A DNA stretch of 64,000 bases from the human T2T-CHM13v2.0 reference genome, Homo sapiens: assembly GCF_009914755.1 (NCBI RefSeq), contig NC_060944.1, one strand, 5' to 3'. A program made the translations under genes and the position numbers. Below the pieces are notes generated by a model. The model was not told the origin of the DNA. It worked only from the letters and a program-made list of their open reading frames with translations, and ran no database searches. Shown one piece after another: positions 15,202-22,595 of the stretch (positions are counted from its first letter, which is position 1; each line of letters opens with the position of its first letter).

Positions 15202-16140
15202 CAGTTATGCATTGCTAAACAACAGGGATATTGTATTAGTCCATTCTCACACTGCTAATAAAGACATATCAGAGACTGCGTAATTTATAAAGGAAAGAGG
15301 TTTAATTGACTCACAGTTTCGCATGGCTGGGGAGGCCTCAGGAAACTTACAATCCCGGTGGAAAGGGAAGCAAACACGCCCTTCTTCACATGGTGGCAGG
15401 AGCAAGAATGAGAGCCGAGAGAAGGGGGAAGCCACTTGTAATAAAATCATCAGATCTCATGAGAATTCACTCCCTGTCACAAGAACAGAATAGGGGAAAC
15501 CACCCCCATGATTCAATTATCTTCACCTGGTCCCACCTTTGACATGTGGGGATTATTACAATTCAACATGAGATTTTGGGTGGGGACACAGCCAAACCGT
15601 ATCAGATACATACACAAACCTGGATGGCATAGCCTATATACCTAGGCTATAAGCCTATTGCCTTTAAGCTACAAACCTGTACAACATGTTACTATACTCT
15701 TTACCGTATACTGTAGGCAATTATAACACAATGGTAAGTATTAGTGAATCTAAATATAGAAAAGATACAGTAAAAAGATGGTATAAAAAACAAAACATGG
15801 TACACTTATAAAGGGCACTTACTATGAATGAAGCTTGCAGGACTGGAAGTTTGTCTGAGTGAGTAAACAAGAGAGTGGTGAGTGAATGTGAAGGCCTACA
15901 ACATTCCTGTATATATACCACTGTAGACTTTATAAACACTGAACACCAAGGCTACACTGAACTTATGAAAAATGTTTTTGTTTCTTTAATAATAAATTAA
16001 CCTTAACTTAGTGTAAACTTTATATATTTTAGTTTTTTAAAACTTTTTGACTCTGTCATAATAACACTTAGCTTAAAACAAACACATCATACAAAAATAT
16101 TTTCTTTATACCCTTATTCTATAAGCTTTCTTCTATTTTT
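15202..16140 (-). mobile_element. Tigger3b-like DNA transposon, interrupted by an MST LTR; its other terminus is displaced and inverted at 16433-16483
   Basis: TA|CAGTTATGCATTGCTAAACAACAGGGATA terminus; body TACACAAACCT.GATGG.ATAGCCTA...GCTTGCAGGACTGGAAGTT. Confidence 0.85.
15232..15604 (-). mobile_element. MaLR LTR (MSTA-like) nested in Tigger3b
   Basis: TGTATTAGTCCATTCTCACACTGCT...GGGGACACAGCCAAACCGTATCA; TSD GATAT/GATAC. Confidence 0.88.
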
Positions 16141-16483
16141 AAAATTCATGTAAATTTCATAGAAATATTATTTTAATTGATAAAAGCCAAGTATTATTTC
16201 ACCTATATGAAATTTACATGAATGTATATAAAATGTTCAGAATAGGCAAATCCATAGAGACAGGAGATTGGTGGTTGCCTAGGGATTAGGGAAGGAGCAA
16301 ATGAGGAGTGACTGCTAATGGGTCCAGGATTTCTTTTTTGGAGTGATGAAAATATTCTGGAATTAAGTATAATGATGATCATACAATACGGTGAATATAC
16401 AAGAAACTCCACTACATCGTACACTTTAAATACAGTCATAAGTTGCATAACAAAGTTTTGCTCAATGACAGACTGTATACACA

Positions 16484-17147
16484 ATGCATTTGTTTAATTT
16501 GTTTCATTGTTTCCTAAAACCACATTGCAAGTTAAGAGAATATATTGTCATGACTATAAATGCTTTATTGAATTTGATCGGTTCCTGTAATTATGTATGA
16601 AAAACGAGACTTCACAGCCTTTATTCAGAATCATACTTTATATTGCTTATGTCTGACTCTGTAACAGTTCATAAAATTATATAGCATGTTTGGATATGAT
16701 GAAAATTTAGCATTATCTAATGTAAAGCCAAAAGAGAGAGCTGTTGGAGAAATCTAGTCCAATTCTTTTATTATTCAGTTGAAGTAATTGTAAGTTACAA
16801 ATATTAAGTGGTTTGTCCAAAATCAGAAAGGTAATTGGTGTCAGATCTGGAACCAGAAAGTAGAACAGGGTTTAGGAAACATATTCATTATAAGGTTTAA
16901 CTGTTGTAATTATTGCTATTATTGAAAAAAGAAAAAATTGCATTAAAATGAAATGGATAATTGACAATTATCGAAATAATTGTTTCAAATGACTCACTTA
17001 TCTACATAATTCAGACAAAAGTCAGCATTGTAGTTTCCTCCTAATTAAATAGATATTTAATACTAGTTTTCCACTGCATGAAAATTAAAACAGAAAAGCC
17101 TTTAGAATCTTATTGCTTCCTCTTGTTTAAAAACATTTAATTCATTG
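16484..17147 (-). repeat. Left arm of ~665-bp inverted repeat (reverse complement of 18844-19509)
   Basis: Manual alignment: first ~237 bp identical; about 12 differences overall. Confidence 0.97.
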
Positions 17148-17149
17148 CA

Positions 17150-18652
17150 TTTAGTATTTCTATGATTTATTCATGTTGAGGCATGTATCAGTACTTTAAT
17201 CCTTTTTATAGCTAATATTCTATTTTATGGATATACCACATTTTGTTTGTTTATTCATTAATTGATGGGCATTTGGGTTGTTTCCCTTTTTGACTATTAT
17301 GAATAATGCTGCTATGAACACTCATATAGAAGTTTCTGTGTGAACATATGTTTTCAATTTTCTTGGGTATATATATACCTGGGGGTGGGAATTGCTAGAT
17401 AATATGATAGCTCTATGTTTAAATTTTTGAGAAACTGCAAGACTGTTTTCCAAAACGGGTGCACTATTATACATTCCCATCAGTGATGTCTAAGGGTTCC
17501 ATCCACATCCTCACCAACACCTGGTATTGTCCATGTTTTTGATTCTAGCCATCCTCATGAGTATGAAGTAATATTTCAATGTAACTCTGACTTGCATTTC
17601 CCTCATGACTAATAATGTTGAGATTTTTTTTCATGTGTTATTGGTCATTTATATGTTTCTTTGGATAAGTATTCAACTCTTTTATTTTTTAATTGAGTCA
17701 CTTGTCTTTTATTGATGAGTTGTAAGAGTCCTTTATATATTCTGGATACTATAACTTTATCAGATATATGATTTGCGAATATTTTCTCCCAATCTGTGGG
17801 TTTTTACTTCTTGATAGTATTCTTTATAACACAAAAGTTTTTTTTAATGATGTCCTATTTATCTATTTTCTCTTTGGTTACTTGTATTTAGGTTTTACAT
17901 TTAAGAGGTATTATGCCTAATCCAAGGTCACAAAGACTTACTGCTATGTTTTTGGCTAAGAATTTTATAATTTTACCTTTTATATTTAGGTCTTTGGTCC
18001 ATTTTGAGTTAATTTTTTTGTATAAGATGTGAGGTAGAGGTCCCACTTTATTATTTTGCATGTAGATATCCAGTTGTCCCTGTATCATTTACTGAAAAGA
18101 CTCTTCTTTTCCCCATTAGATGGTCTTGAAACCTTGTTAAAATTCAACTGACCATAGGTGTATTGGTTTATTTCTGTACTCTTAGTAGATTCCATTGACC
18201 TATATCTCTATCCTTATGCCAGTACCACAGTTTTGTTTACTACAGCTTTGTAGTAAATTTTGAACTCTAAAGTGTTAGTTCTCTAACTTTGTTTGTTTTT
18301 CAAGAGTGTTTTGACTCTTCTTACTGCATCCCTTGCATTTCCATATGGACTTTATAATCAGCCATGTCAACTTCTGCAAGAAAGACAGCTAGGATTTTGA
18401 TAAGGATTGTGTTGAATCTGTAGTCCAATTTTGGGAATACTACCATGTTAACATCGTCTTCCCATCCATGCACGTGCAATAGCTTACCATTTATTTGGTC
18501 TTCCTCAATTTCTGTCAACAATGATTTGTAGTTTTCAGTTGCAAGTCTTGCACTTCTTTTGTTAAACTTTTTCCAAATATTTATTCTTCTTAATTACATA
18601 ATTCTCATAATTAATAAAATTCTGAAATTTTCTTAATTTCATTTTTGTGGCC
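17150..18652 (-). mobile_element. L1MB-like LINE (3' UTR and ORF2 C-terminal remnant); most of the inverted-repeat spacer
   Basis: GGATATACCACATTTTGTTT..GATGGGCATTTGGGTTGTTTCC..AATAATGCTGCTATGAACA; ORF2-like peptides INSKWTKDLN and YRFNTILIKI on the minus strand. Confidence 0.88.
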
Positions 18653-18843
18653 ATGCACTTTAAAACTTGCCTTTTAACAAGACTTCCAGATGATTCTTGT
18701 GAACATTAAGTTTGTGAAGTGCTTCTCTATTGACAAACTGAACTCACGTGACATTCCACACAGCACTGGCAAATTCTGTCCCGTAACTCCGCTAGCTCTC
18801 CAACAAGAAGTGACTTGACGCAGCCCAAGGTTACTACTTAACA

Positions 18844-19509
18844 CAATGAATTAAATGTTTTTAAATAAGAGGAAGCAATAAGATTCTAAAGGCTTTTCTG
18901 TTTTAATTTTCATGCAATGGAAAACTGGTATTAAATATCTATTTAATTAGGAGGAAACTACAATGCTGACTTTTGTCTGAATTATGTAGATAAGTGATTC
19001 ATTTGAAACAATTATTTTGATAATTGTCAATTATCCATTTCATTTTAATGCATTTTTTATTCTTTTTTCAAAAATAGCAACAATTACAACAGTTAAACCT
19101 TATAATGAATATGTTTCCTAAACCCTGTTCTACTTTCTGGTTCCAGATCTGACACCAATTACCTTTCTGATTTTGGACAAACCACTTAATATTTGTAACT
19201 TACAATTACTTCAACTGAATAATAAAAGAATTGGACTAGATTTCTCCAACATCTCTCTCTTTTGGCTTTATGTTAGATAATGCTAAATTTTCATCATATC
19301 CAAACATGCTATATAATTTTATGAACTGTTACAGAGTCAGACATAAGCAATATAAAGTATGATTCTGAATAAAGGCTGTGAAGTCTCGTTTTTCATACAT
19401 AATTACAGGAACCGATCAAATTCAATAAAGCATTTATAGTCATGACAATATATTCTCTTAACTTGCAATGTGGTTTTAGGAAACAATGAAACAAATTAAA
19501 CAAATGCAT
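18844..19509 (+). repeat. Right arm of ~665-bp inverted repeat
   Basis: Reverse complement of 16484-17147. Confidence 0.97.
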
Positions 19510-19804
19510 GATTCCTTAAATTTTGTTGACTCGGGATTTAGTTACATATAAGACTCTTTTCCCCCAGCCAGATTAACCCTGCTCTGTATATGTAATACGC
19601 ATCTTCCCCCCAAATTTCACAATAATAATTTTATGAAAATCAGTATGTAAGTTGCTGCATTGGCATGAAAGGCTACTAATGTGATATCTTTCAAAGATAA
19701 AGTGAACGTTTTTGTAAAAAGCCACCACACTGGAGGCATTTAACAATATTCATCTTCCTATGGCATTACTACCCTAGATGTACTTTGCAATATTAATCAA
19801 GCCT

Positions 19805-20533
19805 TGTCTTACTTCAGGCTTCCTAGAAATAGAGCACAAGGCAGGGATTCTTTCTTGCTCGGTGATTTATTGAGGAAGTGCTCTCAGAAGAAATTGGTAA
19901 GATGCTAAGGAGAACAGCAAAGGACAGGAGAAGGGGGCTGAGCAGAGATGGGGATCTAACTGGAATCTGGCCTTTGCTGATTACCAGAGCAGCTCTGGGT
20001 GCGAATGGTGAAGTGCTGTTCTATTGACAAACTCCACTCAAGTGACATTCCATGCAGCACTGCCAAATTCTGTCCCATAACTCTGCTAGCTCTTCAACAA
20101 GAAGTAACTTGAGGCAGCACAGTTACAGAAAACAGCACAAGAACCAAGGATACTAAACAGTGACTTAAATGTTTTTAGATAAGAGGAAGCAATGAGATAC
20201 TATAGGGTTTTAATTTCTGTGCAATGGAAAACTAGTATTAAATATTTATTAATTAGGAGGAAACGACAATGCTGACTTCTGTCTGCATTATAGACAAAAT
20301 TGAGTTCTCCAACCATGAGGCAAGGTGCTGGCTTTTTGTACCCCTGCACTATTCATTTGATGGGTGAGTGCACTGTAACTTCCAGACGTCTCTTGGTAGG
20401 TGGGCCCCACTGGCCAAGGGCATTTCCCGGGAGAGTGAACGGCTGTGAGCTACTAGCAGTAGCAGTCACAGCAGCTGGGAGGAAACACACTGGTCAGGTA
20501 AAGGGCCAGCATCTACCAAGGTCCAGTTCCACA
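19805..20533 (-). mobile_element. ERVL LTR (LTR33-like), split by the 20008-20294 insertion
   Basis: TGTCTT..CAGGCTTCCTAGAA..AGAGC...GATTTATTGAGGAAGTGCTCTCAG; resumes at GAGTT..CCAACC.TGAGGCAAGG; related uninterrupted copy at 60379-60821. Confidence 0.75.
20008..20294 (+). repeat. Diverged direct duplication of 18714-18990 inserted in an ERVL LTR
   Basis: GTGAAGTGCT..CTATTGACAAACT...AAATTCTGTCCC...GCTAGCTCT.CAACAAGAAGT...AAGAGGAAGCAAT...GCAATGGAAAACT...CAATGCTGACTT shared colinearly. Confidence 0.92.
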
Positions 20534-20691
20534 ATTAGTGGAGAAATATTTAATAACATTATTTTTGAAAATAATTAGGCCATATGACTTTGACACTTTT
20601 TCTCTAGCAAAGTGACTAAAGAGAAGCAGGTTTTTAACTGGGTTTTTATTTCTGTTGTGTCTCTAGCCAAAGCCATGCTGATGTTTGATAG

Positions 20692-20813
20692 TTTTTTTTT
20701 TTCTTTTTTTAAGAGATGGGGTTTCACCATGTTGGCCATGCTGGTCGTGAACTCCTGACCTCAATGGCCTCCCAAACTGTTGGGATTACAGACGTGAGCC
20801 ACCACGCCCAGCC
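20692..20813 (-). mobile_element. Alu left monomer / FLAM
   Basis: T-tract + GAGATGGGGTTTCACCATGTTGGCC...GTGAGCCACCACGCCCAGCC. Confidence 0.85.
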
Positions 20814-21429
20814 AGAATTTTTTTTCCTAAAGAATAGAACAACATTATAAAATTTTAGGCATTAAGGACAAATTTTATTTTATGATTTTCATTTCGGTGA
20901 GTCACAAGATATTCAACACAAAATGAAACTTCACAAAATTTCACAAAATGAAAAATTCATTTCAGATTCAATATCCACCTCCATCATCCATATTCATTCT
21001 TCCAATGTCTCAGGCCAGAAATTTGGAGTATGTGGCTTCTCCACCTCACACAATTTGCCCTAACTTTAATATATACTCAGAAATTACTGGCTTTTCACTG
21101 TTTCTATGATTCCCATGTGTAATATACAATACTCACCATGCATACAATAATACAATAATTCTGTGTCACAACCACACCTAAATTGGTAAGTTTATAAGGT
21201 TATAAGCTGAGAGGTTTTGCTGATCTTGGCTGAGCTCAGCTGGGCAGGTCTTCCGGTCTTGGCTGGGGTTCACTGACACACAAGCAGCTGACAGTTGGCT
21301 GATCTAGGATGGCCTCAGCTGGGATGACAGGCTGTTTCCTCACCTTCCAGCAGGCAAGCCAGTCCCAAGAAAGAGAAGGGTGAAACATGGAGGCCATTAA
21401 TTGAGCCCATCGCATGAAACGCATCTGTG

Positions 21430-22154: not shown

Positions 22155-22595
<441 letters not shown>

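What the first reader, a model, noticed from the sequence alone, without database searches (positions are those of the whole stretch)
16484..19509. ~665-bp near-perfect inverted repeat around a 1.7-kb spacer, with an identity gradient: candidate recurrent inversion or self-homogenising palindrome
Seen: 16484-17147 is the reverse complement of 18844-19509. The outer ~237 bp are identical, including intact CpGs. The outer ~428 bp have 3 mismatches, two forming a reciprocal TG/CA pair (one ancestral CpG decayed on opposite strands). The inner ~236 bp have about 9-10 differences. I do not recognise the arms as transposon TIRs. Inference: identity is higher than a single old duplication would leave, and the gradient suggests arm-to-arm gene conversion. 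Established: highly identical IRs with short spacers mediate NAHR inversions. The spacer could therefore be orientation-polymorphic, and any read-through transcript would form ~660 bp of dsRNA.
Basis: partly seen in the sequence, partly recalled or inferred. Interest (0 to 1): 0.8.

Follow-up and report, generated by a model that had tools for sequence, protein, structure and literature searches.

The report
Small inverted duplication that broke an L1
Two almost identical 670-base copies of a unique sequence face each other across 1.7 kb on human chromosome 20; the left copy was most likely pasted in by a one-off DNA repair or replication accident that also flipped the tail of an ancient L1 element, which makes this an ordinary kind of structure seen in unusual anatomical detail.

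Summary
The inverted repeat is real. Window 16484-17147 pairs with 18844-19509 at 653/666 identities, and homology extends to 17157/18833. The arms are unique in T2T-CHM13, so they are not transposon ends.

The right arm is the source. An older partial copy at 20008-20305 spans its inner junction. The left arm is derived. It sits between the two halves of one ancient L1: the ORF2 part is antisense in the spacer (17155-18646), and the natural 3' end (about 313 bp, 16158-16472) is flipped and ends 11 bp from the arm's outer edge.

The junctions carry a 3-nt inverted microhomology, an 11-nt overlap of the L1 halves and a perfect 18-nt snap-back copy. This fits a single fold-back or template-switching rearrangement, which is a known kind of event.

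The identity gradient is statistically supported (3/428 outer versus 14/249 inner differences). Derived changes lie in both arms (2 and 2). Later arm-to-arm gene conversion of the outer part is therefore plausible but unproven.

No inversion is listed here in two catalogues. Orientation polymorphism, concerted evolution and dsRNA formation could not be tested, because no ape or pangenome sequence was available. Interest is modest.

The parts
15607..16143 (.). Left flank: an unrelated old dispersed repeat, not named here, ending in a T/A-rich run
   Evidence: 15,876 first-look candidates genome-wide and 40 scored copies at 74-79% identity, covering query 308-847 (window 15607-16146). L1 copies fetched with flanks do not match it.
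16144..16161 (+). 18-nt perfect inverted 'snap-back' copy of 16206-16223, sitting at the left breakpoint
   Evidence: 18 nt, 100% complementary, 44 nt apart; 2 matches in the window against 0.03 expected, and 0 of 100 shuffles reach 2.
16158..16472 (+). L1 3'-terminal piece (about 313 bp, sense on the + strand), inverted relative to the rest of the same L1
   Evidence: in 12 of 15 fetched L1 copies, the sequence directly 3' of the spacer-homologous part matches window 16147-16450 in the opposite orientation; the window sequence aligns with the family's 3' terminus just before the family's poly(A); an 11-nt overlap with the other L1 half.
16473..16483 (+). 11 nt between the L1 3' end and the arm (a decayed tail remnant or filler)
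   Evidence: It is not A-rich and does not match the sequence beyond the right arm.
16484..17157 (+). Left arm: the derived, inverted copy of 18833-19509
   Evidence: It is derived because it separates the two halves of one L1. The older third copy is collinear only with the right arm's inner context.
17155..18646 (-). Main part of the spacer: L1 ORF2 C-terminal half, sense on the minus strand, cut off at both ends
   Evidence: 20,427 candidates, with scored copies at 68-77% identity; minus-strand translations match human LINE-1 ORF2p residues 780-845 (18321-18593; E=2.6e-5) and 955-991 (17888-18088; E=2.2e-7); other copies continue beyond 18646; private branch about 0.17 substitutions per site.
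18647..18832 (+). Unique spacer piece next to the right arm; its right 120 bp are collinear with the arm in the old third copy
   Evidence: (D1), 5 and 37: 18714-18827 matches 20008-20121 at 88%, and the match continues into the arm.
18833..19509 (+). Right arm: the source copy, in its ancestral context
20008..20305 (+). Older direct partial copy (78-88% identity) of 18714-18997, used as the outgroup

Best explanation
The locus is a small inverted duplication of unique DNA. Its arms are about 674 bp and its spacer is 1.68 kb. It was created once, by a break-repair or replication accident with several template switches (fold-back priming, MMBIR-like).

Inferred starting arrangement: left flank, then one contiguous antisense L1 fragment of about 1.8 kb, then 186 bp of unique DNA, then the arm sequence, then the right flank.

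Inferred event: a break or stalled fork inside the L1 let a 3' end fold back about 1.7 kb and anneal at a 3-nt inverted microhomology at the inner edge of the arm. It then copied about 674 nt, which became the left arm. The L1's last 313 bp were rejoined in flipped orientation, and an 18-nt snap-back copy was left at the other junction.

Shown: the anatomy, the derived status of the left arm, and the junction features. Inferred: the order of the switches.

Since the event both arms have accumulated changes; the inner third differs by 4-6%. The outer two thirds (0.7%, and zero in the outermost 237 bp) were probably re-homogenised later by arm-to-arm gene conversion. The repeat could in principle mediate NAHR inversion of the spacer. 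CHM13 carries the orientation in which the structure was built, and no evidence of a flipped allele was found.
For: 1. The arms are real and unique in the genome.
2. The spacer is mostly L1 ORF2 on the minus strand.
3. In 12 of 15 other L1 copies, the stretch directly 3' of that part corresponds to window 16147-16450, but in the window it is inverted and lies on the far side of the left arm. It includes the family's natural 3' terminus.
4. The two L1 halves overlap by an identical 11-mer. This 11-mer differs at 5 positions from the sequence that predominates among the 12 family copies aligned; no copy carries the window's version. The L1 was therefore probably already decayed when it was cut.
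5. The third copy, at 78-88% identity, is collinear across the spacer/right-arm junction but not across the left-arm junction. The right arm is therefore the source.
6. At the inner junction the left copy follows the ancestral arm sequence (it equals the third copy) up to a 3-nt TAT shared with the L1.
7. A perfect 18-nt inverted copy sits at the other breakpoint.
8. Human fold-back inverted duplications have single-copy spacers of 766 bp to 70 kb (median 3.4 kb) and 2-8 bp of inverted microhomology (Hermetz 2014, PMC3907307; passages read).
9. The identity gradient is significant, and the 4 polarisable inner differences are split 2 to 2 between the arms.
Against: There is only one genome, so the pre-event allele is inferred and not observed.

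The event needs at least three or four switches or joins. No single textbook model (a plain staggered-break inversion, or plain fold-back) reproduces the order of the pieces. I worked through these on paper.

The outer junction (16483|16484) has no clear microhomology.

The outer edge of the left arm lies only 11 nt from the L1's natural 3' end. Under random breakage that is a roughly 1-in-100 coincidence. I explain it by a break in the tail and run-off of synthesis there, but it also fits the reverse-transcription rival.

The gene-conversion step rests on 17 differences and 4 polarised sites. The strongest p-values include the ragged inner edge.
Confidence: 0.6

Rival explanations
1. The structure has the same origin but no gene conversion. 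The duplication is simply young, at a few million years, and the clustering of differences near the inner end is due to chance, local mutability, or error-prone synthesis at the start of the fold-back copy.
For: Overall divergence is only 2%. The p-values are moderate when the ragged inner edge is left out (P=0.023; midpoint cut: p=0.012). Two of the inner differences are indels in an A-run. From my own knowledge, repair synthesis is mutagenic near breakpoints.
Against: The outgroup assigns 2 of 4 polarisable inner differences, plus the innermost edge changes, to the right (source) arm. Copying errors in the new arm cannot explain those. The TG/CA pair implies two independent hits at one CpG, which is unlikely in a duplication of very recent date.
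Confidence: 0.22
2. Origin by L1 reverse transcription. Two nicks about 670 bp apart left the arm duplex with two free 3' ends. Both primed cDNA synthesis on one L1 RNA, one at the 3' end and one internally. The repeat would then be as old as the L1 and would have been kept alike by tens of millions of years of gene conversion.
For: Both ends of the left arm look like primer-to-cDNA junctions. The outer end abuts the L1 3' terminus within 11 nt. The inner end joins the antisense L1 at a microhomology. The two L1 pieces together cover the element once, with a short overlap.
Against: The canonical twin-priming layout is not met, because the inverted piece lies on the wrong side. There is no poly(A) at the junction, and the arm end is not T-rich. 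The L1's private branch is about 0.17 substitutions per site, against at most 0.056 differences per site between the arms even in the inner part. The shared 11-mer already differs at 5 positions from the family, which argues that the L1 had decayed before it was cut. The 18-nt snap-back is a DNA-level signature.
Confidence: 0.05
3. The locus is an actively toggling, orientation-polymorphic NAHR inversion in present-day humans. This does not exclude the origin proposed above.
For: Arm identity is 98%, with 237 bp of perfect match, across a short spacer. On the first of 43 parts of the supplementary workbook holding Table S1 of Moreira-Pinhal 2026, regions with 500-800-bp repeats include polymorphic ones: HsInv0061 (654/656-bp repeats, 1,674 bp inverted) and HsInv0040 (755/756 bp). 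Giner-Delgado 2019 (passages read) reports recurrence for most IR-mediated inversions.
Against: Nothing is listed at hg38 chr20:10.013-10.025 Mb in that 612-region catalogue, which merges 1,528 calls from five long-read, Strand-seq and optical-mapping studies. Nothing is listed at T2T chr20:10.059-10.065 Mb in Porubsky 2023. On the same table page, HsInv0062, 0064, 0066 and 0032 have similar repeats and were not polymorphic in 54 people. Absence from the catalogues is weak evidence. The arms are under 1 kb and so fall outside the segmental-duplication track used to seed candidates. My hg38 position also rests on recalled ANKEF1 coordinates.
Confidence: 0.1
4. The structure is a DNA transposon with long terminal inverted repeats, or an assembly artefact.
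For: None beyond the inverted symmetry itself.
Against: The arms have no other copy in the genome. No target-site duplication is visible at the outer ends. The interior is an L1 fragment, not a transposase gene; Pfam found nothing credible in 9 reading frames. The arms differ at 13 to 17 positions and have distinct flanks, which a collapse or false duplication would not produce.
Confidence: 0.02

Closest known systems
Fold-back (intrastrand-priming) inverted duplications with a single-copy spacer (Hermetz et al. 2014, PLoS Genet, PMC3907307)
   Same: An inverted copy lies next to its source across a kb-scale single-copy spacer: 1.68 kb here, against 766 bp to 70 kb in that study. There is a short inverted microhomology at the spacer/duplication junction: 3 nt here, against 2-8 nt. 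Extra small templated pieces occur at the junctions.
   Different: Those cases are megabase duplications with terminal deletions, arising from dicentric chromosomes. Here only about 674 bp were copied before synthesis left the template, the chromosome stayed intact, and a neighbouring 313-bp piece was flipped.
Replicative template-switching rearrangements (FoSTeS/MMBIR) and short fold-back templated insertions at breaks (e.g. PMC11724301; only the abstract lines in a search listing were seen)
   Same: Several junctions lie within 3 kb. Copies of nearby sequence are inverted (18 nt and 674 nt). Junctions carry microhomology.
   Different: This is an old, fixed event or at least a reference allele, not a de novo or experimental one. 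The order of the switches cannot be observed.
IR-mediated (NAHR) polymorphic human inversions of the InvFEST HsInv series (Aguado 2014; Giner-Delgado 2019; Moreira-Pinhal 2026)
   Same: The architecture and size class match. For example, HsInv0061 has 654/656-bp repeats around 1,674 bp.
   Different: No second orientation is known here. The arms are unique sequence of under 1 kb and are made by neither transposable elements nor annotated segmental duplications.
Large sex-chromosome palindromes with arm-to-arm gene conversion (recalled from my own knowledge: Rozen 2003; Warburton 2004)
   Same: Inverted arms are more alike than their likely age suggests, and identity is uneven along the arm.
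   Different: The arms here are 10 to 1000 times shorter, contain no genes, lie on an autosome in intergenic DNA, and reach only 98% identity. Concerted evolution was not shown.
L1 5' inversion by twin priming (recalled from my own knowledge: Ostertag and Kazazian 2001)
   Same: One L1 is present as two pieces in opposite orientation with a short overlap.
   Different: Here the 3' end is the piece that is displaced, it lies on the wrong side, and 674 bp of non-L1 DNA sit between the pieces.

Membership tests
Fold-back / template-switch inverted duplication | An inverted copy adjacent to its source, separated by a single-copy spacer of roughly 0.7-70 kb | tested here: met
   Arms at 16484-17157 and 18833-19509 with a 1,675-bp spacer. 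Comparison range from Hermetz 2014.
Fold-back / template-switch inverted duplication | One copy is demonstrably derived, because it interrupts a pre-existing sequence | tested here: met
   The left arm separates two halves of one L1. The third copy is collinear only with the right arm's context.
Fold-back / template-switch inverted duplication | Inverted microhomology at the spacer/duplication junction | tested here: met
   A 3-nt TAT is shared by the L1 end and the ancestral arm edge, or 4 of 5 nt with one mismatch. A match this short could arise by chance.
Fold-back / template-switch inverted duplication | Absence of the copy in the pre-event allele (outgroup species or other haplotypes) | not testable with these tools
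   No primate or pangenome sequence is held.
IR-mediated polymorphic / recurrent inversion | Highly identical inverted repeats at both breakpoints | tested here: met
   98% identity over 666 columns, with 237 bp perfect.
IR-mediated polymorphic / recurrent inversion | Both orientations observed in a population or between species | tested here: inconclusive
   Not listed in two catalogues. No haplotype data could be examined.
Palindrome under concerted evolution | Arms cluster by species rather than by position | not testable with these tools
   Only within-genome proxies are available: the identity gradient and the 2:2 polarisation.
DNA transposon with long TIRs | Multiple genomic copies sharing the termini | tested here: not met
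   Only the two arms and one local partial copy exist in 3.1 Gb.
DNA transposon with long TIRs | Target-site duplication flanking the outer ends | tested here: not met
   The outer flanks differ when read directly.
L1 twin-priming 5' inversion | The inverted 5' piece lies directly upstream of the sense 3' piece that carries the poly(A) | tested here: not met
   The 3' piece is separated from the rest by the arm and lies on the opposite side.
Segmental duplication (formal definition as given plus my recall: at least 1 kb and at least 90% identity) | Length of at least 1 kb | tested here: not met
   The arms are about 674 bp. This may explain why SD-seeded inversion catalogues would not include the locus.

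The most novel reading that the evidence does not exclude
The repeat may be far older than its 98% identity suggests. On this reading it formed in a catarrhine or earlier ancestor, in the same event that flipped the L1 tail. It has since behaved as a miniature self-homogenising autosomal palindrome, with repeated arm-to-arm conversion of the outer 430 bp and possibly repeated flipping of the spacer in different primate lineages. That would make it a sub-kilobase model of the process known from the giant sex-chromosome palindromes, and the broken L1 would give it a built-in record of its birth.
Probability: 0.3. Interest if true: 0.45.

Novelty: new member of a known kind. Interest (0 to 1): 0.3.

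Why it matters
The locus is intergenic. It lies between the PARAL1 3' end and the SNAP25-AS1 3' end, and nothing found here suggests a function.

Its value is as a worked example. Because the event cut through a datable L1, every junction can be read: the source arm, the derived arm, the microhomology, the snap-back and the flipped fragment. This shows that a short high-identity inverted repeat can be the scar of one template-switching accident and need not be a transposon or a recurrent-inversion engine.

It also shows a blind spot. Unique-sequence repeats under 1 kb fall below the segmental-duplication threshold used to seed inversion catalogues. If apes show species-wise clustering of the arms, the locus would be a compact case for measuring gene conversion between sub-kilobase inverted repeats.

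Tried and rejected
Rejected readings.
- Transposon TIRs: rejected because the arms are unique and no target-site duplication is present.
- Canonical L1 twin priming: I favoured this at first, after misreading the L1 strand. It was rejected once the PDB ORF2p matches and the family 3'-end alignment fixed the polarity.
- Plain staggered-break inversion, a long L1 target-site duplication, and 'NAHR flip of an earlier arrangement': each was worked through on paper, and none reproduces the observed order of the pieces. The long-TSD model is also contradicted by the third copy's collinearity.

Searches that led nowhere.
- Pfam on 9 stop-to-stop frames of the L1 pieces: no credible family; the best hits were sub-threshold at E=0.015 and 0.11.
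- Rfam on 15500-21000: one sub-threshold hit, mir-562 at 23 bits against a cut-off of 100, inside the L1. I treat it as chance.
- Search for an L1 target-site duplication between the left flank end and the start of the unique spacer piece: only a 7-nt T/A-rich match, which is inconclusive.
- Dating the event from the overlap of the two L1 halves: only 11 nt are securely duplicated, and they are identical, so they give no age.

Literature.
- No paper holds 'ANKEF1' together with 'inversion' and 'inverted repeats'.
- The main texts of Aguado 2014 and Giner-Delgado 2019 do not mention chr20.
- Porubsky 2022 (Cell) is not held, so its supplement was not seen.
- Supplements of bioRxiv pangenome papers are closed and may list small inversions here.
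Full report
OBSERVATION

The inverted repeat exists as described. The repeat finder reports two abutting inverted pairs: 16484-16937/19056-19509 (454 nt, 99%) and 16925-17156/18835-19066 (232 nt, 95%). BLAST of the left arm against the reverse complement of the right arm gives one alignment with 653/666 identities and 2 gap columns. No difference occurs in the first 237 columns. A TG/CA pair sits at columns 238-239, a C/A at 258, and everything else lies in the inner third.

A global alignment of the arms extended to 17158/18833 has 677 columns and 17 differences. Three lie in the outer 428 columns and 14 in the inner 249 (Fisher p=1.3e-4). With a midpoint cut the split is 3/333 versus 14/344 (p=0.012). 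A permutation of mean position gives P=2.3e-4. These figures include the ragged innermost 10 columns, where 4 of the differences lie. An earlier hand count listed only 12 of the 13 differences of the 666-column alignment and gave P=0.023. The gradient is therefore real at a moderate level of confidence.

The arms are 28% G+C. The left arm has three CpGs and the right arm has two.

THE ARMS ARE UNIQUE SEQUENCE

A search of the whole 3.1-Gb assembly with the left arm finds three places only: itself, the right arm, and an 82%-identical 156-base piece at window 20158-20305. The right flank search gives the same local set, apart from one 33-bp match (E=4e-5) on another chromosome that lies outside the arm-like part of the query. 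The arms are therefore not ends of a transposon family. I saw no target-site duplication at their outer ends.

WHICH ARM IS THE ORIGINAL

An older local paralogue at 20008-20305 aligns in direct orientation with 18714-18997. That stretch is the last 120 bp of the spacer plus the inner 160 bp of the right arm. Identity is 78% overall, and 88% ungapped over 114 bp. The left arm matches this third copy only up to its own inner edge (16992-17157). The spacer/right-arm contiguity therefore predates the arm duplication. The right arm sits in ancestral context and the left arm is the copy.

WHAT SURROUNDS THE LEFT ARM

The first 1,490 bp of the spacer (about 17155-18646) belong to a very abundant old repeat: 20,427 first-look candidates, with scored copies at 68-77% identity. 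Translations of the minus strand match human LINE-1 ORF2p in solved structures. Window 18321-18593 matches residues 780-845 (E=2.6e-5), and 17888-18088 matches residues 955-991 (E=2.2e-7). This is therefore an L1 in antisense orientation. Other copies continue past the point corresponding to 18646, so the fragment is cut off at its 5' side. Pfam found nothing credible in nine frames.

I fetched 15 other copies of this L1 family with their flanks. In 12 of the 15, the sequence that directly continues the element in the 3' direction matches window 16147-16450. In the window this piece is in the opposite orientation and lies on the other side of the left arm. It runs to the family's natural 3' terminus at about 16472, only 11 nt from the outer edge of the arm at 16484.

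The two L1 halves overlap by an identical 11-mer. That 11-mer differs at 5 positions from the sequence that predominates among the 12 family copies aligned, and none of those copies carries the window's version. This suggests the element had already decayed when it was cut.

By a consensus-free three-point estimate, the L1 fragment's private branch is about 0.17 substitutions per site. That is several times the divergence between the arms.

JUNCTIONS

- Inner junction (about 17155-17157). The left copy follows the ancestral arm sequence, where it agrees with the third copy and the right arm has since changed. This continues up to a TAT shared with the L1, giving a 3-nt inverted microhomology.
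- Left breakpoint. Window 16144-16161 is a perfect 18-nt reverse complement of 16206-16223, which lies 44 nt away inside the flipped L1 piece. The window holds 2 matches against 0.03 expected, and 0 of 100 shuffles reach 2.
- Outer junction (16483|16484). It shows no clear microhomology.

MECHANISM

The simplest starting state is: left flank, one contiguous antisense L1 of about 1.8 kb, a 186-bp unique piece, the arm, then the right flank. The present state differs in three ways:
- The L1's last 313 bp are flipped.
- An inverted 674-bp copy of the arm lies between the two L1 pieces.
- An 18-nt snap-back copy sits at the far junction.

I worked through five alternatives: plain staggered-break inversion, a very long L1 target-site duplication, canonical twin priming, a simple insertion followed by an independent inversion, and NAHR flips of alternative ancestors. 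None gives the observed order without extra coincidences.

What fits is a single break-repair or replication event with serial template switches. A 3' end at the break inside the L1 folded back about 1.7 kb, primed at the microhomology and copied the arm. Synthesis or joining then moved on to the L1 tail fragment in reverse orientation, made the 18-nt snap-back, and rejoined the left flank.

This is the fold-back/MMBIR class. In human fold-back inverted duplications, Hermetz et al. found single-copy spacers of 766 bp to 70,466 bp (median 3,428 bp) in 21 of 21 sequenced junctions, and 2-8 bp of inverted microhomology in 13 of the 18 junctions that did not fall in homologous repeats (PMC3907307; passages read). 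The anatomy and the derived status of the left arm are shown. The order of the switches is inference.

One feature keeps a rival alive. Both ends of the left arm look like places where a DNA 3' end primed L1 cDNA: one end abuts the element's 3' terminus, and the other abuts an internal site. If so, the repeat was born with the L1 insertion and has been kept alike ever since. Four points count against this:
- There is no poly(A) at the junction.
- The arm end is not T-rich.
- The L1 divergence is about 0.17 per site, against at most 0.056 between the arms.
- The shared 11-mer had already decayed.
I give this rival about 5%.

GENE CONVERSION

Four inner differences fall where the third copy aligns reliably. 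Two are derived in the left arm (17125, 17074) and two in the right arm (18927, 18998). The innermost edge has changed in the right arm. The inner third has therefore diverged in both copies, by 4-6%, as ordinary ageing predicts. Errors made while copying the new arm would not give this split.

The outer 428 bp differ at three positions, and the outermost 237 bp at none. The TG/CA pair implies two independent hits at one CpG.

The most economical reading is a duplication roughly 10-40 million years old, on my own rough use of neutral rates, whose outer part was re-homogenised later. A younger duplication with chance clustering cannot be excluded; I give it about 0.2. No outgroup genome was available, so concerted evolution is not demonstrated.

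INVERSION POLYMORPHISM

CHM13 has the spacer in the orientation in which the structure was built. The unique piece abuts the source arm and the L1 break abuts the derived arm.

The 612-region catalogue of IR-flanked candidate inversions (Moreira-Pinhal et al. 2026) merges 1,528 calls from five studies, plus paired-end predictions and inverted segmental duplications of 1-50 kb (sections read). It has no entry with coordinates in hg38 10.013-10.025 Mb (Table S1). The only chr20 entry I saw, on the first of 43 parts of the supplementary workbook that holds Table S1 and the other tables, is HsInv0193 at 10.807 Mb. My hg38 position, about 10,017,600-10,020,650, is derived from recalled ANKEF1 coordinates.

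The T2T-based callset of Porubsky et al. 2023, built on CHM13 v1.0, has nothing at chr20:10.059-10.065 Mb.

Repeats of this size can mediate inversions. HsInv0061 (654/656-bp repeats, 1,674 bp inverted) and HsInv0040 are polymorphic, whereas HsInv0062, 0064, 0066 and 0032 were not polymorphic in 54 people. Absence from the catalogues is weak evidence, because the arms are under 1 kb and thus below the segmental-duplication threshold used for seeding.

Porubsky 2022 is not held, and bioRxiv supplements are closed. Those may bear on this point.

OTHER CHECKS

Rfam on 15500-21000 gave only a sub-threshold mir-562 hit inside the L1, at 23 bits against a cut-off of 100. No transcript is annotated over the repeat in the supplied gene table. 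The 3' end of SNAP25-AS1 lies 3.2 kb to the right on the minus strand, so read-through could in principle produce a hairpin RNA. This could not be tested.

VERDICT

The repeat is not a transposon, and its identity pattern is compatible with gene conversion. Above all, it is the legible scar of one fold-back/template-switch rearrangement that broke an ancient L1. That makes it a new member of a known kind, with no sign of function and no evidence of orientation polymorphism. Interest is about 0.3.

Noticed in passing
window 20008-20305: An old direct partial duplicate (78-88% identity) of 18714-18997 lies 1.3 kb downstream of the right arm. The same short stretch has therefore been copied locally at least twice, once direct and old, once inverted and younger. 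The 88% identity over 114 bp is high for such an old copy and might reflect constraint.
   Followed up: partly
window 16144-16161 and 16206-16223: A perfect 18-nt inverted repeat with a 44-nt loop lies at the left breakpoint. The flipped L1 piece also appears to carry roughly 19 extra bases here relative to the 12 family copies aligned.
   Followed up: partly
window 15607-16146: An abundant old dispersed repeat (15,876 candidates, copies at 74-79% identity) ends beside the left breakpoint. I did not identify its family.
   Followed up: no
window 20692-20889 and 22223-22475: Two mutually inverted stretches are 75-77% alike. They also match several places in the flanks of unrelated L1 loci, so they are probably copies of a common short interspersed repeat.
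   Followed up: no
window 17391-17487: A sub-threshold Rfam match to mir-562 (23.3 bits against a gathering score of 100, E=0.18) lies inside the antisense L1. I treat it as chance.
   Followed up: no
outside the window, hg38 chr20:10,807,399-10,808,852: The only chr20 entry I saw in the part of the supplementary workbook that I read (part 1 of 43, which opens Table S1) is HsInv0193: 418-bp LTR repeats around 618 bp, polymorphic. It lies about 0.8 Mb away.
   Followed up: no
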